The notes beneath the pieces are model-generated. The model was not told the origin of the DNA. It made no database searches and saw nothing but the letters and a program-made list of their open reading frames with translations. Position numbers and translations under genes: made by a program. Positions 2,556 to 58,856 of a DNA stretch of 64,000 bases are shown here, in pieces. Every line of letters starts with the position of its first letter. The first letter of the stretch is position 1. This stretch comes from a virus (lineage: Duplodnaviria > Heunggongvirae > Uroviricota > Caudoviricetes): IMG/VR virus record IMGVR_UViG_2703718833_000007, positions 1-64,000 of that record. One strand, given 5' to 3'.

Positions 2556-3971
2556 TTAAAAAGATGCGTTATTCTGATTGTTTCGTTGGTTAAAACGGCT
2601 TGTGCGATGATTCATTGACTGAATACACGCTGCGGCTGCGCGCGCCTGGTCGCATGGCAAGATATTACCGTTGTCATCAAACCGCTGGTAAACAGTTCCA
2701 GACTTACCATGACGGTTTTTTGACACAATGATTTCCATGTATTCGCGGGCAACAGACTGCTCGTCGTAATACCCATCGCGGTAAACCATGATTATTCTGT
2801 CGGCATCTTGCTCAAGGTTGCCGGAATCACGAAGATCAGAATTATTAGGGCGCTTGTTTGGTCGTTCCTCAACTCGTCGTGATAATTGCGCCAGCGCTAA
2901 CACTGGAACGCGCAATTCTTTCGCCATCATCTTCAACGACCATGACAATTGCCCAACAGCGAGATCATGACGTTCTGCCTTAGCCAGCTTCATCAACCCT
3001 ATGTAGTCAATCATTACCATACCCAGGTTGGGATGTTCCTGTTTCATCCGTTCCGTGGTGGCGCGTATTTCCTCAACCGTTAACTGCGACGCGTCAACGA
3101 TCCACACATCAAGATTAGCAAGTGCGCTCATACCCTGGCCGACATGCGCCCAACCCTCATCATCAAGTTTTACAGGATTGCGCAGGCAGTCAGTTGATAA
3201 ATTACCAGCGCCAGCGATAGCGCGTTCAGTCATCTGATCGAGTGACATTTCAAGCGTGAATAACAAAACGCCAACCCGCTGATCCTTGCTGCCAGGGTAA
3301 GGGCGTTCAGCAGCAGCGCGGGCAATTGCCAGCGCCAACGCAGATTTACCAGACCCAGGGCGTCCGGCGAGAAGCACCAGATCAGTAGCGTTAATGCCGC
3401 CTAACATTTCGTCGAGTGGTTCTATCCCTGTTTTGATGTTGTCAGAATTGACACCGCATTCCATGCGCTTACTTAAAACTTCCGTGTATTCCTGGACAGC
3501 ATCGCGCAACAGAACAGGGATAATCTTGTCTTTCGTTACCTTTAATTTTGAATACCGGGAATCAAAATCTTTCATCGTCTCTTTGACGACCTCAAGCGTC
3601 CCCGTCTCCAGTTTGTAGCGCATATCGTCGATGAGTTCCAACATCTGCCGCCGCTGGTGCTCTTCACGTAGTAGCTGTGCGTATCCCTTCAGGTTGGCAG
3701 CAGACGGGCACGATCTCGCTGTTTGCATTAGCGGTACGAAATTTTCATTACCAATCTCATCACCGACCAGCAATGCATCGATGAGATTCCTGTTTCTGGC
3801 TTGTGCCCGGATAATTTCAAAAGCCCGCTTATACAGCGGAATAGTGAACACTTCAGGATCAAGCGTAGCGAGAACATCTTGCGCGTTAGGGGTTAGGCCA
3901 CCTAACAGCAGCCCGCCGATAACTGACGCCTCACGTTCCTGCCGTAGTGAGTTTATTTGCTCAGTTACCAT
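2556..3971 (-). CDS. DnaB-family replicative DNA helicase
   Basis: 471 aa; Walker A GRPGSGKSALAL and DnaB C-terminal RecA-like domain motifs. Confidence 0.85.
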   Translation of the reverse strand: MVTEQINSLRQEREASVIGGLLLGGLTPNAQDVLATLDPEVFTIPLYKRAFEIIRAQARNRNLIDALLVGDEIGNENFVPLMQTARSCPSAANLKGYAQLLREEHQRRQMLELIDDMRYKLETGTLEVVKETMKDFDSRYSKLKVTKDKIIPVLLRDAVQEYTEVLSKRMECGVNSDNIKTGIEPLDEMLGGINATDLVLLAGRPGSGKSALALAIARAAAERPYPGSKDQRVGVLLFTLEMSLDQMTERAIAGAGNLSTDCLRNPVKLDDEGWAHVGQGMSALANLDVWIVDASQLTVEEIRATTERMKQEHPNLGMVMIDYIGLMKLAKAERHDLAVGQLSWSLKMMAKELRVPVLALAQLSRRVEERPNKRPNNSDLRDSGNLEQDADRIIMVYRDGYYDEQSVAREYMEIIVSKNRHGKSGTVYQRFDDNGNILPCDQARAAAACIQSMNHRTSRFNQRNNQNNASF

Positions 3972-4510
3972 TATGTTATTGCCTCCGGTTTACAAAATGT
4001 ATTTTCATCTGGTGAAGAAATACCGTGGTTATGGTGATAGCCATATTTTATTTCAGCTTCACGCCGCGCCCTTACAGCATCATCATATGATTTCCCCCAG
4101 TACACGCTTATAGTTTTTCTTTTGCCATTTTTACTCCATACTACTATTCTTGATCTCCATACTTTTTTTATTTTATCCCAATAAACGCCAACGCAACCGC
4201 TAGTGTTATCTATTGGCTTCTTTGCGTTTCTTGCATTTTCCCACGCATAAACAAGTCTTAAATTTTCAATTCTATCGTCACCTGGCATGTGATTTATATG
4301 ATCAATCATCATTCCATCAGGGATAGGGCCATTAAACATTTCCCAAACAATTCTATGTCTAAGAAAATATTTTTTATTAATAACTATTTGCCAATAACCT
4401 ATGCTCCCCCTACATCCTGCCACATCACCGGGTTTTATTCTTGTTTTGTATCTGTGTTCTTTCCAGTACAAAACACCATTGCTATAAATAAATAATTTAC
4501 TCCATTCCAT
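3971..4510 (-). CDS. HNH endonuclease with AP2 domain (homing-endonuclease-like), copy 1
   Basis: HNH_3-like DHINH...N motif, AP2-like segment, C-terminal KYGYHHNHG; start taken at internal ATG 4510 to avoid 160-nt overlap. Confidence 0.75.
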   Translation of the reverse strand: MEWSKLFIYSNGVLYWKEHRYKTRIKPGDVAGCRGSIGYWQIVINKKYFLRHRIVWEMFNGPIPDGMMIDHINHMPGDDRIENLRLVYAWENARNAKKPIDNTSGCVGVYWDKIKKVWRSRIVVWSKNGKRKTISVYWGKSYDDAVRARREAEIKYGYHHNHGISSPDENTFCKPEAIT

Positions 4511-5624
4511 AATTAGACATCCCAGGTCTATACACAAAGCGCCCAATCTCGCCATATTCAGGACTGTAAATGATAACAGCAGCGCAACGTTGCGAACGCC
4601 ACCCACCACGGGCCGAATAAGCATCTTTAGCAGCCAATGTTCCGTGATGTTCGACAACGCCTAACGATGTTTCAATAACAGATTGATGGTGTAAATGGCC
4701 TACATGCGCGTAAACATATTTAGATTTACCGAAATCATCCCGCCAGTCAGAAACACAGGCAGCAAGTAAATTTTCTGGCTTTTTGATAGTGTGCCCGTGG
4801 TGGTAAGCAAGGAATGTTTTGCCGTACTGTGTGTGGTGGACGATGGCAGGGGACACGTCAACCTTTACGCGCGGTTCATCTTCGTAAAAAGCCGACAGCG
4901 CAGCACGTAGCCAGATCATTCCTGACTGGTCGTGATTGCCTTCAAGTACCTGTATTTCTACCTCCTTGTGATTCAGCAACATTTTCCCAACAGCACGCCT
5001 TACAGATCTGATAACCACATAAACAAGTTTTGCGTAGCGTGAATCGCAATCCAGGACGTGATTGCTTGATGGCGTAACTGGCAACAGCCCGTCAGAATGC
5101 GCCACATCACCGCCTAACAACAATACAGCTTTTTCAGACATCGGCGCAGCGCCTACCGCGTAGTCAAAGAAGTCATTTAACACGCGCTCAGCGATCCCAG
5201 TGTCGTAGCTCTCGCCGCATTCAGCTTTATGGGCAAGTGCCCCGATATGCAAATCAAATACCGGATAAAGGGCAAGACTTTTTTGAAAATCAATTTCAGG
5301 CACTGGCACGGCCTCCGCGCGTGGTATTTCCTCCGTGAATGCGTCGCGGGCAGCTTCCATTAGCCTTTCCATTTCATCACGGTCACGGGCAGTTTTAATC
5401 CAGCGCATGACCGTATTCCCAGCCTTATCGACAAGAACAGATTCACCAGTAACGCCAAAACCCGGCGCGCGGCGTGTTGATAACAAACCGCGTTTCGCCA
5501 GCTTTGCGCCCAGACGCTCGACGTTGCGTTTTGACATGCCGTATTTTTCAGCGATCTGCTTGTACGTTAAACCGTTGTTATATTCAGCGATCAATTGTTC
5601 ATCGCTGATTTTTCTTTGCGACAT
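4497..5624 (-). CDS. HTH domain fused to calcineurin-like metallophosphoesterase
   Basis: N-terminal HTH (LTYKQIAEKYGMSKRNVERL); phosphoesterase motifs DLHIG, GGDVAHSD, GNHD, GHLHH. Confidence 0.55.
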   Translation of the reverse strand: MSQRKISDEQLIAEYNNGLTYKQIAEKYGMSKRNVERLGAKLAKRGLLSTRRAPGFGVTGESVLVDKAGNTVMRWIKTARDRDEMERLMEAARDAFTEEIPRAEAVPVPEIDFQKSLALYPVFDLHIGALAHKAECGESYDTGIAERVLNDFFDYAVGAAPMSEKAVLLLGGDVAHSDGLLPVTPSSNHVLDCDSRYAKLVYVVIRSVRRAVGKMLLNHKEVEIQVLEGNHDQSGMIWLRAALSAFYEDEPRVKVDVSPAIVHHTQYGKTFLAYHHGHTIKKPENLLAACVSDWRDDFGKSKYVYAHVGHLHHQSVIETSLGVVEHHGTLAAKDAYSARGGWRSQRCAAVIIYSPEYGEIGRFVYRPGMSNYGME

Positions 5625-5655
5625 AATGTTACTTCCTCCGGTTTACTATATGTAT

Positions 5656-6426
5656 TTATTCAGAAAAAATAATATTTATCAGTTCATTAAATCTTGATTC
5701 GTAGAAATGAGGTTGAGTCTCTCGCGGATTAGTTGGATTGGTTACGTTTTTCGCGTACAAACGACCGTAAGCTGTGACGTTCCAAAATCTCTTTTCGCCG
5801 CAACGTGCTTTACGATACTTGCGTTCCACAATACCTTTGCGCTCAAGTATTGGATAAACTTCACGCGCATTCATGCCAACGTTATTTTCATCTAGCAATG
5901 CTGTAAGAGATTTTGTCACGCGGCTTGATCCATCCACCGCATCAGCAGGCGCATCAATAGCATAATGCGGAAGGATAGGAGGAATATTATATTCCTTTTC
6001 AATCTTCTGAAGCATTCCTAATTTTCCTGAATTACTCATATTCAGCATTCTACTCGCTGTTTCAGCGAAGGCTAGAACATTGCCGATCTGCGCGTTACCG
6101 TAATTTGGAACAGCATTTTGCCGTACTGCATTTTCAAGTTCCTGCCAGCGGTCAACGAGCCGCGCCGTAAATTCAGGGCAGTTTTGAGCCACGACAATGA
6201 TGCTATCTCGTTTGCCCTGTTCGCCTTCAAAAATATAGACATTAACAAACCTGTTAGGACTAAGTGATTGTTTATTCTCAACTTTCCCCATTGGGGGTAG
6301 TTGAATTATCCCCCTCTGTGCCATGCGTTCTATAGACTGTTTTACTTTATCGTGACGATTGCCTAGTAGTTCCGCAATTTCAAAACTATTCATCTTAACA
6401 GCATCAAAAACCATTAAGTCACTCAT
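5656..6426 (-). CDS. Rha-family phage regulatory protein / antirepressor-like
   Basis: N-terminal region resembles phage regulatory protein Rha; start set at ATG 6426 with GGAG RBS. Confidence 0.55.
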   Translation of the reverse strand: MSDLMVFDAVKMNSFEIAELLGNRHDKVKQSIERMAQRGIIQLPPMGKVENKQSLSPNRFVNVYIFEGEQGKRDSIIVVAQNCPEFTARLVDRWQELENAVRQNAVPNYGNAQIGNVLAFAETASRMLNMSNSGKLGMLQKIEKEYNIPPILPHYAIDAPADAVDGSSRVTKSLTALLDENNVGMNAREVYPILERKGIVERKYRKARCGEKRFWNVTAYGRLYAKNVTNPTNPRETQPHFYESRFNELINIIFSE

Positions 6427-6557
6427 TGTAATTTCTCCGTAAAACGCTCTACAACGCAAAATCCCACCGCGTAACCCATTTGCACAGGTTGCAGTGTCTT
6501 ATTGCGTCAGAGGCGCTTTCAGGTGGCTAATTTTTGATTTACAGACTGGTAGGTAGG

Positions 6558-6659
6558 TTATGGATTGACTAGAAGGAACAAACCGCCGAACAAAGCGACG
6601 TTAACAGCGATTGCCGCAGCGATGGCAAAAGCCAGGGCGAAAACGTGTTTACCGTCCAT
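6558..6659 (-). CDS. small hydrophobic peptide (33 aa)
   Basis: MDGKHVFALAFAIAAAIAVNVALFGGLFLLVNP; GAGAGG RBS 8 nt upstream; below track cutoff. Confidence 0.3.
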   Translation of the reverse strand: MDGKHVFALAFAIAAAIAVNVALFGGLFLLVNP

Positions 6660-6792
6660 TTTAAAATCCTCTCTAAAACGCTCTCTAACGAGCTAAACCG
6701 CTAAAGGTATGCAAGTGTAGCACCCAATGCTTTTTAGCTCGCTGGTGGGCTTGTTTTGTTGGTGATTTTTGATTTTTGCGTATTGTGGTTGG

Positions 6793-7845
6793 TCAAATAG
6801 CGCCTGCGCGTGTATCGCGTAGCGTTTTTGGTTTAAGCAGGAAATCAAGTGTCGCAGTGAAGCCATCGCCGAAGTAAAAGTCCGAAGCCTTGATCTTGAA
6901 CGCTTCAAAGTAGGCGATAAAGCCGTTAATGCTTTTGTCTTTCAGGTAGTCAGTGAACGCATAGATCTTACGTTCCAAATCCCGATCCAGTTCAGCAGGT
7001 GGCAACAGGCCATCAAACGTGATGTTAAACTCATTAACCACATCGGCAGCGTTTACAGTAGATGACAGCTTGCGCCATTGTTCAGCGTCAGCCAGATACC
7101 CATCGAATTTAGTTACCCGGCAAATGTTGATAGGCTTAGGTGTTCCGCCACGGCTACGCCATTGCGTTAAAGCCCACTCAATCACTAATGTGATCTCATC
7201 CTCCGTATACGCTTTGCGTGTTTTTGTTTCTGTCAGTAGTTCGATGAATGGCTTAGCATCACGACATTTGCATCCTGCCTTGTCGTTGTAGAATGCCAGG
7301 CAACGCAATGCAGCATCGCTTATCTGATAGTCACTATCCTGATTGACTTCTTTTCTTTTTATATTTTTCTTTTCTTCTTCTGTTTCTTTTTCTTCTTCTA
7401 ATTCTATTTCTAATTCATGACCCTTTCCTGACCCGGTCATGACCATATCATGACCTTTTGTTGTTGGATTGATTAACTTCTCTAATTTTAATTGCTCCTT
7501 AGCTGTGTTTATGGCTGCCCTGTATGCGCTTTTAGAAGTCATTGATTGGTCCAGCCTTTTCAATAACTTTAAACAAGTTATGTGGCCTTGAGAGCATTCG
7601 AATAAACCAATTTCGATAAAGTATTTCATCATTTCTTCTATGCGTTTTTCAGTCGATCCGACGTTTCGCGCGATGATTCTGGCGTCATGTCGTAGGTCAA
7701 ATGTAAGGTTGTGCTGATCTACGTCATAAGTTATCAGTTCTAGGCAATACCAATAAAGCCCGTAGCCTTCCAGGCCATAATCTAATAAAACGTTTTGAAG
7801 TTTTTCATCGCGGTTCGCATCGCTATCATGCTTAAACCACTTCAT
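6793..7845 (-). CDS. phage replication initiation / replisome organizer protein
   Basis: 350 aa; N-terminal replisome-organizer-like domain, acidic linker, conserved phage C-terminal domain; first large gene of rightward-type operon. Confidence 0.6.
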   Translation of the reverse strand: MKWFKHDSDANRDEKLQNVLLDYGLEGYGLYWYCLELITYDVDQHNLTFDLRHDARIIARNVGSTEKRIEEMMKYFIEIGLFECSQGHITCLKLLKRLDQSMTSKSAYRAAINTAKEQLKLEKLINPTTKGHDMVMTGSGKGHELEIELEEEKETEEEKKNIKRKEVNQDSDYQISDAALRCLAFYNDKAGCKCRDAKPFIELLTETKTRKAYTEDEITLVIEWALTQWRSRGGTPKPINICRVTKFDGYLADAEQWRKLSSTVNAADVVNEFNITFDGLLPPAELDRDLERKIYAFTDYLKDKSINGFIAYFEAFKIKASDFYFGDGFTATLDFLLKPKTLRDTRAGAI

Positions 7846-7848
7846 AGA

Positions 7849-8106
7849 TCATTCCTCCGGCAACATCACTACATAGACATCACTGAATGCATCAAGACGA
7901 CAAACAAATCCTTTATCCATTAATGCGGCGAATGCATCATGTACCGTATGAACAGGAAGTTCACACATTGCGGCTACTTCTTTGCGTGATGCATCATGTA
8001 CCCGTCCTTTGTTATCTGCCTTTTCAGCCAGAGCCATTAAGACAAGTTTTTGAATCGGGCTGTTAAGTTTTACGTTCCATGCTTTGCTAATAATGTTCAT
8101 GCTCAT
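7849..8106 (-). CDS. small DNA-binding protein in Cro/CII position
   Basis: 85 aa; divergent from repressor gene across a 306-bp regulatory region. Confidence 0.4.
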   Translation of the reverse strand: MSMNIISKAWNVKLNSPIQKLVLMALAEKADNKGRVHDASRKEVAAMCELPVHTVHDAFAALMDKGFVCRLDAFSDVYVVMLPEE

Positions 8107-8412
8107 TGTATTTTCTCCTATGGTTAAAATGAACGCGCTGGCGGGTATCCCATTAGCATTAGATAGCAGTGACTGACCGCTGAACAGATCCCGCCGTTGC
8201 GTGATATTTGTTTTTCGCTTCGCAGCGACACCGGATTTTTAAAGAGCTTTTAAGGTATGTGCCTTTTGTGCTTTCCATTATCTTTTTTCTTGCATCCTTG
8301 CAAGTATGGCCTTACCTTGTCTGCAAGTTTACAGAATGGCGTTAACAGGTCAAGGATTGAAAATTACATTTTGTGACTTGCATCAAATTTTTTTAGGTTA
8401 TAGGGTAGCGAC
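8107..8412. promoter_or_regulatory. divergent immunity-region promoter/operator region
   Basis: Intergenic between divergent repressor and cro-like genes; CTTGCA/TGCAAG repeats at 8289-8304, 8316-8327, 8377-8382. Confidence 0.5.
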
Positions 8413-9060
8413 ATGAAAACAAAATGGTATGACTTAGCGAAACAACTCATGCGGGCGCAGGGTATGAGTCAGGATTCATTGGCAGATCTCATGGGGATCA
8501 CAAAAGGCGGCTTGTCACACTGGCTTAACGGTCGCCGCGAGCCGAATCTTGAAGACATTGCGCGGATCATGCGGGCGCTTGGGCGTCGGCAATTCACTGT
8601 TACACATGATGGAATGGTCATTGATGATTCTGTTTCTAACACGTTGCCGGGAGCGCCACCGCGTGATTTAGGCAGTTACCCGGTTGTTGACTGGAAGGAT
8701 GTAGTAAACAATATGGAAGATGCAAGGCGATCAACATTACCACACGTTACGACTAGCGTTATTTGTTCAGATGATAGTTACTGGCTGGTAGCTAAAGGCG
8801 AATCAATGAACGCGCCGCAAGGATTGAGTATACCAGCGGGGACGATGATACTTGTCGATCCGCACGCGCCAGCTATTGATGGCAAACTGGTTATAGCCCA
8901 ATTGGAGGAGGGGCAGATACCGACGTTTAAACAGTTGATTATTGATGGAGGCAGAAAACTTTTGCGTTCACTGAATCCGTTGTATCCGCCAATCCCTATG
9001 AATCCAGAATCTAAAATCATAGGCGTGGTAGTGGATGCGAAGATCGTAAACCTGCCATAA
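8413..9060 (+). CDS. cI-like repressor (HTH-XRE plus S24 LexA-type peptidase domain)
   Basis: 215 aa; N-terminal HTH, C-terminal S24 peptidase with GESM serine motif and downstream lysine. Confidence 0.85.
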   Translation: MKTKWYDLAKQLMRAQGMSQDSLADLMGITKGGLSHWLNGRREPNLEDIARIMRALGRRQFTVTHDGMVIDDSVSNTLPGAPPRDLGSYPVVDWKDVVNNMEDARRSTLPHVTTSVICSDDSYWLVAKGESMNAPQGLSIPAGTMILVDPHAPAIDGKLVIAQLEEGQIPTFKQLIIDGGRKLLRSLNPLYPPIPMNPESKIIGVVVDAKIVNLP

Positions 9061-9066
9061 ACATTA

Positions 9067-9090
9067 GCCGCCTGGTGGCGGCTTTTCTTT
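9067..9090 (+). terminator. rho-independent terminator after repressor gene
   Basis: GCCGCC-TGGT-GGCGGC hairpin followed by TTTTCTTT. Confidence 0.5.
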
Positions 9091-9183
9091 GCCATAAAAA
9101 CACCAAAACGTAAACAGAAAACGTTATTTATTGTTTAAATATCAATGACATATAAAATATTTTAAAAAAGTATACAAAATGGA

Positions 9184-9212
9184 TTGACTCGGTGTTTTAC
9201 GTGGCGTATATT
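9184..9212 (+). promoter_or_regulatory. PL-like sigma70 promoter
   Basis: TTGACT, 17-bp spacer, TATATT. Confidence 0.5.
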
Positions 9213-9253
9213 GCGAGTCAAAGGAGGAAGCAAGGCAGGGAAAGAAGGTTACT

Positions 9254-9786: not shown

Positions 9787-10440
9787 GTGAAAACAGAGTT
9801 ACACAAAAAACTGTGGACGATTCAGCAAACGCTGAACGCGCCTAAAAATCAGCGTAATAATTTCGGCGGGTATAATTACAGATCAGCGGAGGATATTTTA
9901 GAAGCGGTTAAACCACTGCTTCAAAATATCACGCTGACTGTTAGTGATGAAATTGTCCTGATCGGCAATCGCTATTACGTGAAAGCAACGGCGACGCTAA
10001 GCGACGGTGAAGATGAAATAGCGGTAACGGCTTACGCCAGGGAGGAAGAAAGCAAGAAGGGAATGGACGCAAGCCAGCTAACAGGAGCAACATCAAGTTA
10101 CGCGCGGAAATATGCTTTGAACGGATTGTTCTGCATTGACGACGCCCGCGATCCTGATACTGACGCATACGCGAAGCAGACAGGCCAGCAGCCACGCCAG
10201 CAGAAAAATACGCCAAAACAGCAACCTAATCAGAAACCACAGCAGCAGAAAGCGCCGCCAAATCCTGATGAGGTGTTAGCACGTTTTTGTGATGCGGCAG
10301 CGAAAGCGCAGGACGAAAAAACACTAAGGGAAATATTCGGTAAATGTTGGAAGCTGTTACCTGAAAATTCAGAGCAACGGCAGAAAGCGCAAGATTGTTA
10401 CCAGATCCGTAAGGATGAACTGAATGGAACAATTAACTAA
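9787..10440 (+). CDS. Erf-family single-strand annealing protein
   Basis: 217 aa; Erf-like N-terminal domain, Q/P-rich C-terminus; GTG start with AAGGAG RBS. Confidence 0.7.
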   Translation: MKTELHKKLWTIQQTLNAPKNQRNNFGGYNYRSAEDILEAVKPLLQNITLTVSDEIVLIGNRYYVKATATLSDGEDEIAVTAYAREEESKKGMDASQLTGATSSYARKYALNGLFCIDDARDPDTDAYAKQTGQQPRQQKNTPKQQPNQKPQQQKAPPNPDEVLARFCDAAAKAQDEKTLREIFGKCWKLLPENSEQRQKAQDCYQIRKDELNGTIN

Positions 10441-11020
10441 AAAATGCACAAAATGCGGCAGAATCCTGCCGCTTAACTCTTTCCTGAAGCACAAATCATG
10501 CAAATACGGCGTAGCTGGTACATGTAAGGATTGCGCAAAGGTATACAGGGAAGCCAATAAAGACAAAATAGCCGAGCAAAATAGAAGATGGAGGGAAAAA
10601 CACAAGGAAGAAATTCGAGAAAAGGATAGAAAATACTACGAAGAACACAAAGAAGAATGTAATAAGCGAGCGAAAGAGTATCGTAAAAATAACAAAGAAA
10701 AAATATTGGAAAAGAAAAATAATTGGGTAAGAAGAAACGAGGAAAGGTTAAAGGAGTATAGGAGACAATACCACGAAGATTATAAAGAAAGAAATAAGGC
10801 GGAACTAAAGGCAAGAACAAAACTAAGCAACGCCATTAGAGATGGTAAAGTATTAAGGCCAAATAAATGTGATAGGTGCGGGAAAAAGTGCACTCCTGAT
10901 GGGCATCATTGGAATTATGCATATCCGCTAAATGTTGTTTGGTTATGCCGTTCTTGTCATAAGATAGTGCATTTTAAGTTTGGGTGTATACACGAAAACA
11001 TTAACGGGGAGATCGGTTAA
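10424..11020 (+). CDS. zinc-ribbon / Lys-Glu-rich / HNH-like nuclease-motif protein
   Basis: N-terminal CxxC...CxxC, highly charged KE-rich middle, C-terminal CxxC...HH...CxxCH HNH-like motif; A-rich composition. Confidence 0.45.
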   Translation: MEQLTKKCTKCGRILPLNSFLKHKSCKYGVAGTCKDCAKVYREANKDKIAEQNRRWREKHKEEIREKDRKYYEEHKEECNKRAKEYRKNNKEKILEKKNNWVRRNEERLKEYRRQYHEDYKERNKAELKARTKLSNAIRDGKVLRPNKCDRCGKKCTPDGHHWNYAYPLNVVWLCRSCHKIVHFKFGCIHENINGEIG

Positions 11021-15854: not shown

Positions 15855-16338
15855 CAGGTTATTAGCCTGCGTTTATGTCGCCGTTTTCGTGATCATCAAC
15901 CTTATTGTTAACCATTGCGGCCCGTGGGTAATTCCGATCACCACGGTAGCCGCTGTGTGTGTCAATATGATGATCCGTGACTTCTTGCTGTATGACGGCG
16001 GCTTGAAATGGTCTGCTACAACATGCGCCGCCGCTGGCGCAATCACGGTAATGATAAATTACGATGCTGGAATGGTAGCGATCGCGTCATTCGTTGCGGT
16101 TGTTTCCGGTGCGCTTATATCTGGAGGTGTTTACCGGGTTTTGCCTGGTGATTTCGATTCTAAGCGCTGGCCTGCAAACATAGCTTCAGCCATCGGGGAT
16201 GCGTTAATTTTCCCGACGCTATCGTTTATGGCGTTTATGCCGGAAATATCAGCGATGCAGTTTATCTCAAAAATGGCAGCGGTAACGGTGATCACTATCA
16301 TCATGCGCCGCTATTTCACGTTTGAGGGTAGAAAATGA
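15835..16338 (+). CDS. integral membrane protein, possible YhhQ-like queuosine-precursor transporter family
   Basis: 167 aa, multiple TM helices; segment VYRVLPG..SKRWPANIASAIGDALIF resembles a conserved region of YhhQ-family transporters as recalled; tentative. Confidence 0.3.
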   Translation: MKKVAIDRLLACVYVAVFVIINLIVNHCGPWVIPITTVAAVCVNMMIRDFLLYDGGLKWSATTCAAAGAITVMINYDAGMVAIASFVAVVSGALISGGVYRVLPGDFDSKRWPANIASAIGDALIFPTLSFMAFMPEISAMQFISKMAAVTVITIIMRRYFTFEGRK

Positions 16339-16862
16339 ATTGGGATGATTATTTTATATACAATCCGGACACAGGTAAGTTGTACTGGAAATATAGAAAT
16401 GACATAGAAGAATCAAGGCGTAAACAATGGAATGCGTGTAATGCTGGTCATGAGGTTGGACATATTGGCGGAAGCGGTGGGTGTCTTAATACAGCGCTTA
16501 CCGTTGGCGGAAAGCGTTATAATTTAAAAGTACATAGAATATGTTACGAGATGTACTATGGGCCAATACCTGAAGGTAAGGAGGTTGATCATATAAATCA
16601 CGTTAAAACAGATAATCGAGCCGTCAATCTTGGATTAAAAGACCATAAAGATAATATGCGCAACATGTCTTTAATGGTAAACAATACCAGTGGGTGCGCT
16701 GGTATCCATAAAAATAAACATGGTAAATGGGTTGTTAGAATCGGTGGAGGCAAAAGAGGTAATAGAATTTATATAGGGTGTTTTTCTGATATCAATGACG
16801 CAATAAAAGCTAGGCGCGACGCTGAAAGAAAGTATGGCTATCATGAAAATCACGGCAAATAG
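16335..16862 (+). CDS. HNH endonuclease with AP2 domain, copy 2
   Basis: VDHINH...N HNH_3 motif, AP2-like segment, C-terminal KYGYHENHGK. Confidence 0.8.
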   Translation: MNWDDYFIYNPDTGKLYWKYRNDIEESRRKQWNACNAGHEVGHIGGSGGCLNTALTVGGKRYNLKVHRICYEMYYGPIPEGKEVDHINHVKTDNRAVNLGLKDHKDNMRNMSLMVNNTSGCAGIHKNKHGKWVVRIGGGKRGNRIYIGCFSDINDAIKARRDAERKYGYHENHGK

Positions 16863-24009: not shown

Positions 24010-24501
24010 ATGATTAGCCAATCGCTGAAAAACCGACTAACTAAGGCGGCGGCTGGTGGAACGTTAGCCATTGCATCTGTTTTGCTTGTATGGGTTGAGG
24101 GTACGGCTTACGAGCCTTATTACGATACCGGAGGCGTGCTAACTGTATGCAATGGCATAACCGGCCATGATGTTGTCCCTGGTAAGAGATATACACCGGA
24201 TGAATGCGAGAGACTTTTGCAAAAGCATTTAACCGTTCACAAAAAGGCGGTTGATCGTTATGTAAAAGTTGACATGAATGATTATCAACGCGCAGCGCTA
24301 ATTAGCTTTTCATACAATATCGGGGTTGACGCTTTCAAAAAATCAACCTTGTTAAAAAAAATAAACAAAGGCGACTTTAAGGGAGCGTGTAAGGAGATGG
24401 ATCGCTGGGTGTATGACAATGGGAGATATATACAAGGCTTAAAGAATCGTCGCGATATTGAACGTGCTATATGTGAATGGGGCGTAACCAATGGAAAGTG
24501 A
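24010..24501 (+). CDS. SAR endolysin (GH24 phage lysozyme with N-terminal signal-anchor-release helix)
   Basis: 163 aa from ATG 24010; weakly hydrophobic Gly/Ala-rich N-terminal helix; lysozyme motifs recalled as similar to phage 21 R. Confidence 0.8.
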   Translation: MISQSLKNRLTKAAAGGTLAIASVLLVWVEGTAYEPYYDTGGVLTVCNGITGHDVVPGKRYTPDECERLLQKHLTVHKKAVDRYVKVDMNDYQRAALISFSYNIGVDAFKKSTLLKKINKGDFKGACKEMDRWVYDNGRYIQGLKNRRDIERAICEWGVTNGK

Positions 24502-25012
24502 TGATGAACTAAAACGAAAGCTACACTACGATCCAGCGACAGGTATTTTCACCTATAAGATTAGTCCTCACGGGAGAATCAAGGCCGGAAGCGTAGCCGG
24601 GTGTAAGCATAAAAGCGGATACATACACATAGGAAGATATAAAGCGCATCGCCTTGCGTGGTTTTTCCATTATGGAGTGTGGCCCGAAAAGGACATTGAC
24701 CATATTAATGGAATAAAAACCGACAACAGGATAGTAAACCTGCGAGAAACAGATGATGCGCATAACTGCAGAAACAAGAAACATATTGCCACTCACACAT
24801 TGTCTGCATTCAGGGGTGTTAGCTACCACAAAACAGAGAGAAGCAAGCCTAAATGGCGAGTAAGAATTACCGACAATGAAGGTAAGCGTATATCTATTGG
24901 TTTATTTGACTCACTAGACGAAGCGATCGCCGCTCGCATTTTGGCGGAAAACTTTTTCTATGGTGAATATGCACCTTCGATGGGTTGCGAGGGTGAAACA
25001 TGGACAAGGTGA
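24491..25012 (+). CDS. HNH endonuclease with AP2 domain, copy 3 (divergent), inserted between endolysin and Rz
   Basis: IDHINGIKTDNRIVNL HNH_3 motif and AP2-like RGV...W segment. Confidence 0.7.
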   Translation: MESDDELKRKLHYDPATGIFTYKISPHGRIKAGSVAGCKHKSGYIHIGRYKAHRLAWFFHYGVWPEKDIDHINGIKTDNRIVNLRETDDAHNCRNKKHIATHTLSAFRGVSYHKTERSKPKWRVRITDNEGKRISIGLFDSLDEAIAARILAENFFYGEYAPSMGCEGETWTR

Positions 25013-31305: not shown

Positions 31306-31797
31306 GTGAATGAAGTGATTAATTGGCATGATTATTTCACGTATAAATCAGGCCATATTTACTGGAAAATATCACCAACTAACGGCGTTCATATTGGCGA
31401 CCATGCGGGGAATGACAGCGGGTTGGGCTACTTGCGTGTTCGTGTCAATTATAGGTTATATCTTGTTAGTAGAATCATATGGGAAATGCACAACGGCCCG
31501 ATCCCGGAAGGGTACGAGATAGACCACATTGACCATAACACACTAAATAACGATATAACGAACCTAAGGATGGTAAGTCATTACGAAAATACACTAAATG
31601 CGCCAATGAGAAAGGATAATAAAAGCGGTTATGTCGGTGTTATTTGGCATAAGGCGTCCCGTAAATGGATGGCGTATGTACAAGTGAATAAGAAGCGCAA
31701 ACATTTAGGTTTATTTGACAGCATAGATAAGGCCGTAGCTGCCCGCCGACAGGCTGAAAAAGAGAACAATTATCACCCAAATCACGGGAGTGTTTAA
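31306..31797 (+). CDS. HNH endonuclease with AP2 domain, copy 4
   Basis: GTG start 31306 with GGAG RBS; IDHIDHN HNH_3 motif; AP2-like segment; C-terminal NYHPNHG. Confidence 0.75.
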   Translation: MNEVINWHDYFTYKSGHIYWKISPTNGVHIGDHAGNDSGLGYLRVRVNYRLYLVSRIIWEMHNGPIPEGYEIDHIDHNTLNNDITNLRMVSHYENTLNAPMRKDNKSGYVGVIWHKASRKWMAYVQVNKKRKHLGLFDSIDKAVAARRQAEKENNYHPNHGSV

Positions 31798-57620: not shown

Positions 57621-58856
57621 CTACGATAACCGCGCATTCAACATGGCTATCTGTTCGTCGTTCATGTCATCAATCCACATACCGTAAATTTCATACACCA
57701 TCTGCGCAGTTTCATGCCCCATTTGGCTGGCTATAAATGCCGGGTTCGCTCCTGCCGTCAACAGCCAGCAGGCAAAAGTATGCCGCGTATGGTACGGATT
57801 ACGGCGGCGAATACCAGCACGTTTTACTGCTGCATTCCACCTTGCCCCCAAACTGCTTACCGAGTAATAAGGTTTTTGTTTTCCGTTACACACCCTGGGC
57901 ATGAAAACAAAATGCAGTTTTTGCTTTTCGGTTCTGCCGTACTCCCGATGATAAAAGGTGATTTCGCTTTTGCGATGATGCCCGGTCAGTTTGTATTGCT
58001 CCTTCAGTGCTTCAAGAGCAGGCTGCAGTAGTGTTACTGTTCGGATCCCGGCATTTGTTTTTGGGGGACCGAACATATCAAGTATCGTCAGGTTTCTTCT
58101 GACATTCACTATTCCCTTTTCGAGATCCACATCCTCCCACGCCAGAGCTGCCAGTTCCCCGTGACGAAGTCCTGAGTAAACGGCAAATTTCCACAAGTTC
58201 TGGCTCTGTCCTTTTTCACTTTCCATTAATGCATTGAATTCTGTTTTAGATAACGGATCAGGCTTTATTCTGTTTCGCTGTAATTTTTTTACTCCTTCAA
58301 ATGGTTTGGTTGATATAAATCCCGACTGATACGCAAAACGCAACAGCGAACAGAGCAGGGCGATATAGTTATCAACTGTGCGCACGGTTCTTCCTTTTTT
58401 GTTGGATCTTGGATTATCCAGGTAAAGCGTTTCTCCATGCAGCAGTTCATTCCGGTAGTTTAAGATATCGCTATAACGAATATGTGATATCGGGGTACTT
58501 TCACAAATTATTATTCTGAGTGTTTTTAATTGTGATTTTGTTTTCTTCATTGTGTATGTTGTTAACTCTGTCTCTTTAATTTTTGTCCAGATATCACAAA
58601 GCTCTCCGAACGTTTTTATGACTCTCGTTGTCACCATTTTTGCCCCAGTGCTGGACTGGGGAAAACGTCTTAAATACTCAAATTCACCGGAGTTTATTTC
58701 ATGAACTATCAGCGCTCTTAAATTTCCGGCCTTTTTAATATTACTGTTTGTAATCTCCCAGCCTTTTAATGTTTCCCGACATCGTTTTCCTCGAAACATG
58801 AACCAGATGCGAATGTATCTACCTCTAATCTCGACACCTGTTGGTAATTTAGACAT
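57621..58856 (-). CDS. intR: Rac prophage tyrosine integrase
   Basis: 411 aa; tyrosine recombinase C-terminal motifs (R...HxxR...Y). Confidence 0.9.
   Translation of the reverse strand: MSKLPTGVEIRGRYIRIWFMFRGKRCRETLKGWEITNSNIKKAGNLRALIVHEINSGEFEYLRRFPQSSTGAKMVTTRVIKTFGELCDIWTKIKETELTTYTMKKTKSQLKTLRIIICESTPISHIRYSDILNYRNELLHGETLYLDNPRSNKKGRTVRTVDNYIALLCSLLRFAYQSGFISTKPFEGVKKLQRNRIKPDPLSKTEFNALMESEKGQSQNLWKFAVYSGLRHGELAALAWEDVDLEKGIVNVRRNLTILDMFGPPKTNAGIRTVTLLQPALEALKEQYKLTGHHRKSEITFYHREYGRTEKQKLHFVFMPRVCNGKQKPYYSVSSLGARWNAAVKRAGIRRRNPYHTRHTFACWLLTAGANPAFIASQMGHETAQMVYEIYGMWIDDMNDEQIAMLNARLS

What the first reader, a model, noticed from the sequence alone, without database searches (positions are those of the whole stretch)
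4497..5624. HTH-metallophosphoesterase fusion inside the replication module
A 375-aa protein between the Rha-like gene and the DnaB helicase combines an N-terminal HTH with a full set of calcineurin-like phosphoesterase motifs (DLHIG, GGD, GNHD, GHLHH). It occupies the position where a helicase loader would be expected and shares a near-identical leader sequence with the helicase gene. It could be a DNA-directed nuclease or phosphatase involved in replication or host interference.
Basis: partly seen in the sequence, partly recalled or inferred. Interest (0 to 1): 0.45.

Follow-up and report, generated by a model that had tools for sequence, protein, structure and literature searches.

The report
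Phage HTH-metallophosphoesterase of unknown function
The gene is real and encodes a DNA-binding domain fused to an intact metal-dependent phosphodiesterase, most likely a nuclease, but it belongs to a large phage family that databases already list and nobody has characterised, and it is not a helicase loader.

Summary

The window is an mEp021-type temperate coliphage. The protein matches PHROG 704 ("DNA repair exonuclease") over its full length. Homologues occur in 2045 phage records, and I found no functional study.

In 41 mEp021-like loci the gene always sits directly upstream of phage dnaB. A 68%-identical copy in T1-like phages lies beside the lysis genes, without DnaB. One plaque-forming T1-like phage has lost the catalytic domain. 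These facts argue against the loader idea.

The shared roughly 35-nt leader is real and conserved across the lineage. An HNH-AP2 homing endonuclease lies between this gene and dnaB.

Best reading: a stand-alone, DNA-tethered Mn-dependent nuclease or phosphodiesterase acting in early phage DNA metabolism. It is a new member of a known but uncharacterised family, of modest interest.

The parts
4497..5624 (-). CDS of the 375-aa HTH-metallophosphoesterase (PHROG 704 family)
   Evidence: ORF listing. Full-length PHROG 704 match, E 8.6e-142. 95% aa identity to mEp010_12. dN/dS 0.08-0.12.
5475..5624 (-). N-terminal helix-turn-helix domain (about residues 1-50; helices 8-16, 21-28, 32-44)
   Evidence: Sub-threshold Pfam HTH hits for this sequence. 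Stronger HTH hits in relatives. AlphaFold2 secondary structure with pLDDT 72-85 over residues 1-40. pI 9.6 for residues 1-100.
5325..5462 (-). Conserved beta-hairpin plus helix (about residues 55-100) linking the HTH to the catalytic domain; G69 and W75 are nearly invariant
   Evidence: Present in 53-54 of 54 representatives. Low model confidence (pLDDT 50-62).
4515..5291 (-). Calcineurin-like metallophosphoesterase domain (about residues 112-370) with motifs I-V: D124/H126, D173(/H176), N230/H231, H276, H310/H312
5626..5657 (-). Leader copy 1 (AAATACATATAGTAAACCGGAGGAAGTAACAT), immediately upstream of the MPE start codon; contains the Shine-Dalgarno GGAGG and a small TACA-N3-(T/A)GTA palindrome
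   Evidence: Conserved in front of the MPE gene in about 40 mEp021-like loci.
3973..4004 (-). Leader copy 2 (AAATACATTTTGTAAACCGGAGGCAATAACAT), immediately upstream of the dnaB start codon; here it lies inside the 3' end of the HNH ORF
   Evidence: In phages without the HNH gene, the MPE stop codon TAA lies inside this copy.
3971..4510 (-). HNH-AP2 homing endonuclease inserted between the MPE gene and dnaB (mobile insertion, not part of the enzyme)
   Evidence: Pfam HNH_3 E 2.2e-17 and AP2. PHROG 99 E 1.1e-58. Absent from 36 of the 40 other mEp021-like loci, where the MPE-dnaB gap is about 27 nt.
2556..3971 (-). Phage DnaB-type replicative helicase, the conserved downstream partner gene in this phage lineage
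   Evidence: Pfam DnaB_C E 1.9e-75 and DnaB N-terminal domain. Follows the MPE gene in all 41 mEp021-like loci.
5656..6459 (-). Rha-like regulator: variable cargo gene in the slot between the O-like initiator and the MPE gene
   Evidence: Pfam Phage_pRha E 9.4e-7, just under the curated cutoff. PHROG 129/4936. The slot holds different genes in mEp021, mEp044 and mEp010.

Best explanation
The gene encodes a stand-alone, DNA-tethered binuclear metallophosphoesterase. It belongs to a large phage-specific family (PHROG 704).

Shown:
- The coding gene is intact and under purifying selection.
- The architecture is conserved: a basic tri-helical HTH, a hairpin and helix, then an MPE domain.
- All seven canonical metal and catalytic ligands are conserved.
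- The fold is MPE, nearest the nuclease/phosphodiesterase branch.
- In mEp021-type temperate phages the gene is expressed from the early rightward replication operon, directly upstream of phage dnaB, and shares a translation-initiation leader with it.

Inferred:
- The HTH docks the enzyme on DNA.
- The MPE domain hydrolyses phosphodiester bonds at DNA ends or structured DNA, using Mn2+ or a similar metal, as an exo- or endonuclease in the manner of Mre11/SbcD, PolD DP1 and mycobacteriophage Bxb1 gp47.
- It acts without a Rad50/SbcC partner, supporting early phage DNA metabolism. That would mean processing replication or recombination intermediates together with the phage's Erf, SSB, NinB, NinG and RusA functions.
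- It is an accessory factor that improves replication, not a core replisome part and not the helicase loader.
For: - The ORF and motifs are present.
- The catalytic residues are invariant in 20 close and 54 distant relatives.
- dN/dS is 0.08-0.12.
- The protein matches PHROG 704 'DNA repair exonuclease' over its full length (E 8.6e-142) and a second phage 'exonuclease' family, PHROG 284 (E 1.9e-14).
- The AlphaFold2 model has pLDDT 74.7, with core strands above 90.
- The top Foldseek hits against PDB are Mre11-DNA complexes.
- Motif II reads G-D-x-x-H, as in Mre11 (sequence here; the Mre11 motif is from my own knowledge).
- The N-terminal 100 aa have pI 9.6, and the HTH is present in all 54 representatives.
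- The gene lies among DNA-metabolism genes in unrelated phages: dnaB in 41 mEp021-like loci; helicase and primase in Salmonella phage KE08; exonuclease, endonuclease VII and ligase in Era103.
- Among the window ORFs I tested there is no RecE or lambda-Exo type exonuclease to partner Erf.
Against: - No biochemical or genetic data exist for this family. I found none in the searchable literature.
- Profile comparison with E. coli SbcD finds only the GNHD motif (probability 3%).
- There is no Mre11-type capping domain and no Rad50/SbcC partner.
- Gene neighbours are inconsistent across phage groups: lysis genes in T1-like phages and tail genes in phage skrot.
- The catalytic domain is lost in phiJLA23. 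A role in replication is therefore at most accessory there.
- Loops carrying family-specific invariant residues (179-193, 332-341) are modelled with low confidence.
Confidence: 0.5

Rival explanations
1. Host-directed nuclease or counter-defence factor. The enzyme attacks host DNA or a host immune signal early in infection and so disables defences or releases nucleotides. This would resemble mycobacteriophage A10ZJ24 Gp48.
For: - Gp48, a phage MPE, has phosphodiesterase activity, damages host genomic DNA, is dispensable in one host and essential in another (PMC12287305).
- The family is dispensable in at least one viable T1-like phage.
- It is patchily and horizontally distributed: 68% identity between temperate mEp021-like and virulent T1-like phages whose flanks are unrelated. 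This is typical of accessory or anti-defence genes.
- In T1-like phages it lies at the end of the early region, next to the lysis genes.
Against: - In mEp021-like temperate phages the gene is a fixed core gene, translationally linked to dnaB in 41 of 41 loci.
- It matches no PADLOC defence-system protein model.
- It is only remotely related to the Gp48/gp47 family: hhalign probability 35-57%, covering motifs III-V only.
- An HTH is not expected for an enzyme that degrades small signalling molecules.
Confidence: 0.2
2. Nucleic-acid end-healing enzyme. The MPE domain removes 2',3'-cyclic phosphate, 3'-phosphate or other blocking groups from broken DNA or RNA. It would work like the MPE module of bacterial Pnkp, alongside kinase and ligase functions.
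For: - In Webervirus phages (L079, L081-L086, L091) and the SP6-like podovirus Era103, the gene is immediately followed by a HAD-type 'polynucleotide kinase' phosphatase (DxDGT motif) and a P-loop kinase.
- In Era103 an ATP-dependent DNA ligase follows as well.
- MPE modules act as end-healing phosphoesterases in Clostridium thermocellum Pnkp (my own knowledge).
Against: - No kinase, HAD phosphatase or ligase homologue is detectable anywhere in this window (tblastn).
- None is found beside the gene in the other T1-like loci or in the mEp021-like loci.
- Where the cassette exists, the adjacent HAD domain already supplies a 3'-phosphatase.
Confidence: 0.12
3. Helicase loader or replisome adaptor. 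The protein recruits or loads the phage DnaB, or bridges it to the host polymerase in the way MPE-fold B-subunits bridge eukaryotic and archaeal polymerases. Catalysis would be secondary.
For: - The gene is invariably placed directly upstream of dnaB, with about a 27-nt gap, overlapping signals and a shared leader, in 41 mEp021-like loci.
Against: - The protein has no Walker A motif and matches no loader family.
- Complete conservation of the catalytic residues argues for an enzyme. Eukaryotic B-subunits have lost these residues (my own knowledge).
- Orthologues of 64-74% identity occur in phages with no DnaB-type helicase nearby.
- The O-like neighbour already shows DnaD-like replisome-organizer and loader similarity.
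- There is no OB-fold domain.
Confidence: 0.05
4. Protein Ser/Thr/Tyr phosphatase of the lambda NinI (PPP) type, or a transcription regulator in which the MPE domain is merely a sensor.
For: - Lambda and its relatives carry an MPE-fold phosphatase (NinI) in the nin region.
- An HTH is the hallmark of regulators.
- NCBI labels one relative 'Rrf2 family transcriptional regulator'.
Against: - The PPP signatures GDxHG, GDxVDRG and GNHE are absent.
- hhalign against NinI gives probability 0.7%.
- Invariance of all catalytic ligands across a huge family argues for catalysis rather than sensing.
Confidence: 0.05

Closest known systems
PHROG 704 ('DNA repair exonuclease'; annotated 'putative phosphoesterase' in T1-like, Webervirus, Dhillonvirus/Kagunavirus/Jerseyvirus-type phages, Era103 gp26, T1 p16, Sodalis phage SO-1 gp58)
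   Same: End-to-end HMM match (E 8.6e-142, residues 4-370). The architecture and length are the same. Identity is 64-74% to the T1-like and Salmonella phage proteins and 87-95% to the mEp021 group.
   Different: Nothing of substance: this is the family the protein belongs to. The family name is a computational label, and I found no experimental work on it. In this lineage the gene is fixed next to dnaB rather than next to the lysis genes.
Mycobacteriophage Bxb1 gp47 / L5 gp54 / A10ZJ24 Gp48 metallophosphoesterases
   Same: These are stand-alone phage MPEs encoded among replication genes. Their nearest solved structures are the same (Mre11, PolD DP1). [quoted passage not shown]
   Different: They are 255 aa with no N-terminal HTH or hairpin. 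Profile-profile similarity is limited to motifs III-V (probability 35-57%), so the relationship is at superfamily level only. No recombination-directionality role is expected here, because the integrase found in the window is a PHROG 1 family (tyrosine-type) integrase rather than a serine integrase; the cognate integrase of this phage probably lies just outside the window.
Mre11 / SbcD nucleases
   Different: There is no capping domain and no Rad50/SbcC partner gene. Sequence-profile similarity to E. coli SbcD is confined to GNHD (probability 3%). An HTH takes the place of the Rad50-binding elements.
Archaeal PolD small subunit DP1 and eukaryotic polymerase B-subunits
   Different: There is no OB fold. 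No phage polymerase turned up among the window ORFs I annotated; this is not an exhaustive search. Unlike the eukaryotic B-subunits, the active site here is intact.
Lambda NinI (PP-lambda) Ser/Thr phosphatase
   Same: It is an MPE-superfamily enzyme carried by a temperate coliphage.

Membership tests
Calcineurin-like metallophosphoesterase superfamily | Five motifs supplying the binuclear metal site: D-x-H, G-D, G-N-H-[DE], H, G-H-x-H | tested here: met
   D124/H126, D173, N230/H231/D232, H276 and H310/H312 are present. They are invariant or at least 91% conserved in 54 relatives of 29-57% identity.
Calcineurin-like metallophosphoesterase superfamily | Double beta-sandwich MPE fold | tested here: met
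Calcineurin-like metallophosphoesterase superfamily | Score above the Pfam PF00149 / PF12850 gathering threshold | tested here: not met
   No Metallophos hit for this sequence at E<=0.01. Only 13 and 10 of 54 relatives hit weakly. The family is too divergent for the Pfam models.
PHROG 704 phage HTH-MPE family | Full-length match to the family HMM | tested here: met
   E 8.6e-142, residues 4-370 against profile positions 2-389 of 390.
PHROG 704 phage HTH-MPE family | Architecture of N-terminal HTH, hairpin/helix and MPE domain in about 370-420 aa | tested here: met
   All 54 representatives fill the HTH and MPE columns.
Mre11 / SbcD | Detectable sequence-family relationship to SbcD/Mre11 | tested here: not met
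   hhalign of the family profile against E. coli SbcD aligns 17 columns around GNHD, probability 3%.
Mre11 / SbcD | C-terminal capping domain following the nuclease domain | tested here: not met
   The protein ends with the last strands of the MPE sandwich at about residue 365.
Mre11 / SbcD | Adjacent Rad50/SbcC ATPase partner gene | tested here: not met
   There is no ORF of 500 aa or more in the early region. The ORFs longer than 600 aa lie at 38-53 kb in the putative structural/tail region (not annotated here) and at 60-63 kb.
Lambda NinI / PPP protein phosphatases | GDxHG, GDxVDRG and GNHE signatures, and family-level similarity | tested here: not met
Bxb1 gp47 / L5 gp54 phage MPE family | Family-level profile similarity over the whole MPE domain | tested here: not met
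   hhalign probability is 57% against the single sequence and 35% against a 20-sequence profile. Only motifs III-V align.
Replicative helicase loaders (DnaC/DnaI AAA+, lambda P, DciA, SPP1 G39P, DnaD-like) | Homology to a loader family, or a Walker A ATPase | tested here: not met
   No such Pfam, PHROG or NCBIfam hit. No Walker A motif. The fold is MPE.
Replicative helicase loaders (DnaC/DnaI AAA+, lambda P, DciA, SPP1 G39P, DnaD-like) | Obligatory co-occurrence with the helicase it loads | tested here: not met
   The gene is linked to dnaB in 41 of 41 mEp021-like loci. No DnaB homologue lies within the fetched flanks (up to +/-7 kb) of the 44 T1-like and Salmonella-phage loci (L003, L006, L041-L067, L069-L076, L078-L086) that carry orthologues of 62-74% identity.
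Replicative helicase loaders (DnaC/DnaI AAA+, lambda P, DciA, SPP1 G39P, DnaD-like) | Physical binding to and loading of DnaB | not testable with these tools
   This needs pull-down or loading assays, or multimer structure prediction. Only single-chain prediction was available.
PolD DP1 / polymerase B-subunits | OB-fold domain preceding the MPE domain, and a cognate polymerase catalytic subunit | tested here: not met
   Only a two-stranded hairpin (58-78) and one helix precede the MPE domain. No polymerase was found among the annotated ORFs of the early region.

The most novel reading that the evidence does not exclude
The HTH-MPE is a catalytically active, B-subunit/DP1-like replisome accessory that is functionally coupled to the phage DnaB. 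It might trim 3' ends or blocked forks at the helicase. Alternatively it is a sequence-directed MPE nuclease whose HTH recognises a specific phage site, possibly the TACA-N3-TGTA palindrome in the leader shared by its own gene and dnaB. Either would be a new way for a polymerase-less phage to modify the host replisome, or a new class of site-directed MPE nuclease.
Probability: 0.1. Interest if true: 0.6.

Novelty: new member of a known kind. Interest (0 to 1): 0.3.

Why it matters
The family is very common. It occurs in 2045 of 50,697 deposited phage genomes and has about 5,355 cluster representatives at 50% identity in metagenomes. It appears in 35 of 5,426 complete E. coli genomes, where RefSeq calls it 'hypothetical protein'. 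Yet it has no known function.

It is present in many therapeutic-candidate phages (T1-like, Webervirus, Jerseyvirus). Knowing whether it is a replication/recombination nuclease, a host-DNA-degrading enzyme or a counter-defence enzyme would improve annotation of thousands of genomes. It might also explain host-range or DNA-damage phenotypes.

The mEp021 group offers a convenient genetic system: a temperate coliphage of E. coli K-12 with the gene fixed next to dnaB. For this particular window, however, the finding is an ordinary member of that family and not a new type of element.

Tried and rejected
- Helicase loader: rejected, for the reasons given in the membership test.
- SbcD/Mre11 membership: rejected. 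There is no capping domain and no SbcC partner, and hhalign gives probability 3%. A nuclease-like mode of action remains the favoured analogy.
- Membership of the Bxb1 gp47 family: tested with a 20-sequence profile. Only motifs III-V align, at 35% probability.
- Defence or anti-defence catalogue: PADLOC gave nothing.
- NCBIfam and direct PDB sequence searches gave only weak HTH hits.
- The idea that the leader travels with the MPE gene: rejected. T1-like, Salmonella, Era103, Rhodobacter and Vibrio phage copies have unrelated upstream sequences.
- The idea that the Pnk/kinase/ligase cassette is general: rejected. It is confined to Webervirus and Era103.
- Literature searches for functional work on the family found only annotation-level mentions (mEp021, T1-like and Drexlerviridae terms, escape mutants, anti-defence).
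- The search for related loci with the diverse alignment A4 failed for lack of a conserved stretch. The afdb50 fold library was unavailable.
- The second structure-prediction job was not used, because no fold-search jobs remained.
Full report
**1. The observation**

The window carries an ATG-initiated ORF of 375 aa at 4497..5624 on the minus strand. It contains FDLHIG (D124, H126), GGDVAHSDG (D173, H176), GNHD (N230, H231, D232), HHGH (H276, H278) and GHLHH (H310, H312). These are the five motifs of the calcineurin-like metallophosphoesterase (MPE) superfamily.

- **Not a chance pattern.** In 20 homologues of 59-88% identity all these residues are invariant. In 54 cluster representatives of 29-57% identity, D124, H126, D173, N230, H231, H276 and H312 remain invariant, and H176, H310 and D232 are 91-98% conserved.
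- **A real gene.** dN/dS against close relatives is 0.08-0.12.
- **The N-terminal HTH.** For this sequence it is seen only as sub-threshold Pfam hits (HTH_23, Rrf2, Sigma70_r4_2; E about 1e-3). Relatives hit HTH models down to E 2.6e-7. AlphaFold2 predicts three helices at 8-16, 21-28 and 32-44. The first 100 residues have pI 9.6.
- **The shared leader.** 31 of 36 nt before the two start codons are identical. The 32-nt pattern occurs only at 5626-5657 and 3973-4004, with none expected by chance.
- **One correction.** The immediate downstream neighbour is an HNH-AP2 homing endonuclease (3971..4510 -; Pfam HNH_3 E 2.2e-17; PHROG 99 E 1.1e-58), not dnaB.

**2. What it is**

The window is a temperate coliphage of the mEp021/mEpimmI group. 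The protein is 95% identical to mEp010_12 and 93% to mEp021_11, both annotated 'hypothetical protein'. The paper describing that phage group does not discuss the gene.

The protein matches PHROG 704 ('DNA repair exonuclease') end to end (E 8.6e-142). Homologues occur in 2045 of 50,697 phage records. These include T1-like Drexlerviridae, Webervirus, Jerseyvirus, phages listed as Kagunavirus, Sodalis SO-1, the podovirus Era103, and Vibrio, Rhodobacter, roseophage, Campylobacter and Flavobacterium phages. A profile search of 1.84 billion cluster representatives finds 5355 members, most 370-420 aa with the same architecture. RefSeq annotates the 35 E. coli prophage copies as 'hypothetical protein'.

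The AlphaFold2 model has pLDDT 74.7 and pTM 0.73, with core strands above 90. It was compared with solved structures in three ways.

- **Foldseek against PDB.** It returns MPE proteins throughout the listed hits, led by M. jannaschii Mre11-DNA complexes (E 5.8e-7).
- **BFVD.** It returns uncharacterised phage relatives. The best named hits are labelled 'DNA polymerase II small subunit' or 'calcineurin-like phosphoesterase'.

At the sequence-profile level the family stands alone.

| Comparison | hhalign probability | Aligned region |
|---|---|---|
| E. coli SbcD | 3% | GNHD only |
| Lambda NinI | 0.7% | - |
| Bxb1 gp47 (single sequence) | 57% | motifs III-V |
| Bxb1 gp47 (20-sequence profile) | 35% | motifs III-V |

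The protein is therefore a distinct, phage-specific MPE family. It has an HTH and a conserved hairpin/helix extension (G69 and W75 nearly invariant). It has no capping domain, no OB fold and no Walker A motif.

**3. Context**

In 41 mEp021-like loci the order is O-like initiator, variable cargo, MPE, dnaB, MarR-like gene, then NinB.

- **Link to dnaB.** MPE and dnaB are always adjacent, usually 27 nt apart.
- **The HNH insertion.** Besides the window, an HNH gene interrupts this junction in only four of those loci. Their allele is only 60% identical to the one here.
- **The cargo slot.** The slot between the initiator and the MPE gene holds a Rha-like gene here, a zinc-ribbon protein in mEp021 and a DNA-binding protein in mEp044.
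- **The leader.** ATACAwwwTGTAAACCGGAGGnAnTAACAwwATG precedes both MPE and dnaB in essentially all these phages. In genomes without the HNH gene, the MPE stop codon lies inside the dnaB copy. Extra copies precede other genes in a few relatives. The leader is absent upstream of the gene in other phage groups. It is therefore a lineage-specific translation-initiation cassette at module boundaries, not part of the MPE gene.

Outside this lineage the neighbours differ.

| Phage group | Neighbours of the MPE gene |
|---|---|
| T1-like phages | After the helicase and methylase genes, just before holin/endolysin |
| Salmonella phage KE08 | Between a helicase and a primase |
| Era103 | After exonuclease and endonuclease VII; before a HAD-type 'Pnk', a P-loop kinase and a DNA ligase |
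| Webervirus | The same HAD-kinase pair follows |
| Jerseyvirus skrot | Inside the tail region |
| RcWata | After the lysis genes |

No DnaB homologue lies within the fetched flanks (up to about 7 kb each side) of the gene in the T1-like loci. The Rogunavirus phiJLA23, a plaque-forming isolate, retains only the first 90 or so codons.

**4. How it most likely works**

- **Shown:** an intact, selected enzyme with a DNA-binding-type domain, expressed in this phage from the early replication operon and translationally linked to dnaB.
- **Inferred:** the HTH tethers the enzyme to DNA, and the binuclear site cleaves phosphodiester bonds at DNA ends or structures. It would act as a partner-independent nuclease that helps early DNA metabolism.

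The phage also encodes Erf, SSB, NinB, NinG and RusA, but no RecE or lambda-Exo type exonuclease among the ORFs I tested.

The closest functional precedents are mycobacteriophage MPEs. Bxb1 gp47 is required for phage DNA replication, has Mre11 and DP1 as nearest structures, and shows limited exonuclease activity (PMC11795197). A10ZJ24 Gp48 is a phosphodiesterase that damages host DNA and counters defence (PMC12287305).

I give about 0.5 to 'DNA-directed nuclease/phosphodiesterase in phage DNA metabolism'. The rivals are:
- host-directed or counter-defence nuclease: 0.2
- end-healing phosphoesterase: 0.12
- loader or adaptor: 0.05
- protein phosphatase or regulator: 0.05

**5. The loader idea**

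- The protein has no similarity to any loader family and no ATPase motif.
- The neighbouring O-like protein already shows DnaD-like organizer and loader similarity.
- The catalytic site is conserved.
- Close orthologues work in phages without a DnaB-type helicase.
- The fixed linkage to dnaB in one lineage is real, but it is equally explained by operon history.

**6. Novelty and verdict**

Interest is modest at 0.3. The family is a reasonable target for experiments because it is so common and has no known function, but nothing about this copy is exceptional. The most novel reading not excluded is an active B-subunit/DP1-like replisome accessory coupled to phage DnaB, or a site-directed MPE nuclease. 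I give that about 0.1.

Noticed in passing
window 3971-4510 (-), 16335-16862 (+), 24491-25012 (+), about 31318-31788 (+): At least four paralogous HNH-AP2 homing-endonuclease ORFs lie in one temperate phage genome. The first three match PHROG 99; the fourth was seen only by tblastn. The copy at the MPE/dnaB junction is only 60% identical to the HNH gene at the same junction in mEp010, mEp021, L009 and L012. It is absent from 36 of the 40 other related loci. Two different HNH alleles have therefore colonised one site.
   Followed up: partly
window 5626-5657 and 3973-4004 (-); L004:3238 (+); L009, L021 and L037 minus strand: The shared leader contains a small palindrome, TACA-N3-TGTA, whose centre flips between TTT and AAA among phages while the arms are kept. 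The leader also precedes other genes in some relatives. It marks the borders of the variable-cargo slot and of the HNH insertion. It could be a mobile translation-initiation cassette, a recombination linker or a protein-binding site. I did not test these options.
   Followed up: partly
window 5656-6790 (-), between the O-like gene and the MPE gene: This is a variable cargo slot. It holds a Rha-like regulator here, a 495-aa zinc-ribbon protein in mEp021, a DNA-binding protein in mEp044 and small ORFs in mEp010. Its length varies by more than 1 kb among 41 loci.
   Followed up: partly
window 7849-8106 (-) and 6793-7845 (-): An 85-aa ORF matches only the N-terminal 90 or so positions of replication-initiator PHROG 4617. 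It is followed directly by a 350-aa Lin1244_N/O-like protein with DnaD-like replisome-organizer similarity. The initiator may be split or made of two parts.
   Followed up: no
window 57621-58856 (-): A PHROG 1 family (tyrosine-type) integrase (E 5.6e-68) lies beyond the roughly 54-kb phage. The window itself starts just inside the phage's excisionase-like gene. The window therefore seems to run into a neighbouring integrative element or host DNA.
   Followed up: no
L093 (Enterobacteria phage phiJLA23) 3001-3333: This viable Rogunavirus keeps only the first 90 or so codons (the HTH part) of the MPE gene. No trace of the catalytic domain is detectable. BFVD also lists short fragments of the family in Jk06 and Salmonella phage 36.
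   Followed up: yes
L087 (Era103) 4498-7700; L091 and L079, L081-L086 (Webervirus), about 7000-9230: A recurrent cassette is present: MPE, then a HAD-type phosphatase annotated 'polynucleotide kinase' (DxDGT motif), then a P-loop kinase annotated 'dNMP kinase'. In Era103 an ATP-dependent DNA ligase follows. This hints at an end-healing and sealing module in some phages.
   Followed up: partly
window 10424-11020 (+): A 198-aa cysteine-rich 'endonuclease' (PHROG 2340, E 1e-33) sits between the Erf and SSB genes. No RecE or lambda-Exo type exonuclease was found among the ORFs I tested.
   Followed up: no
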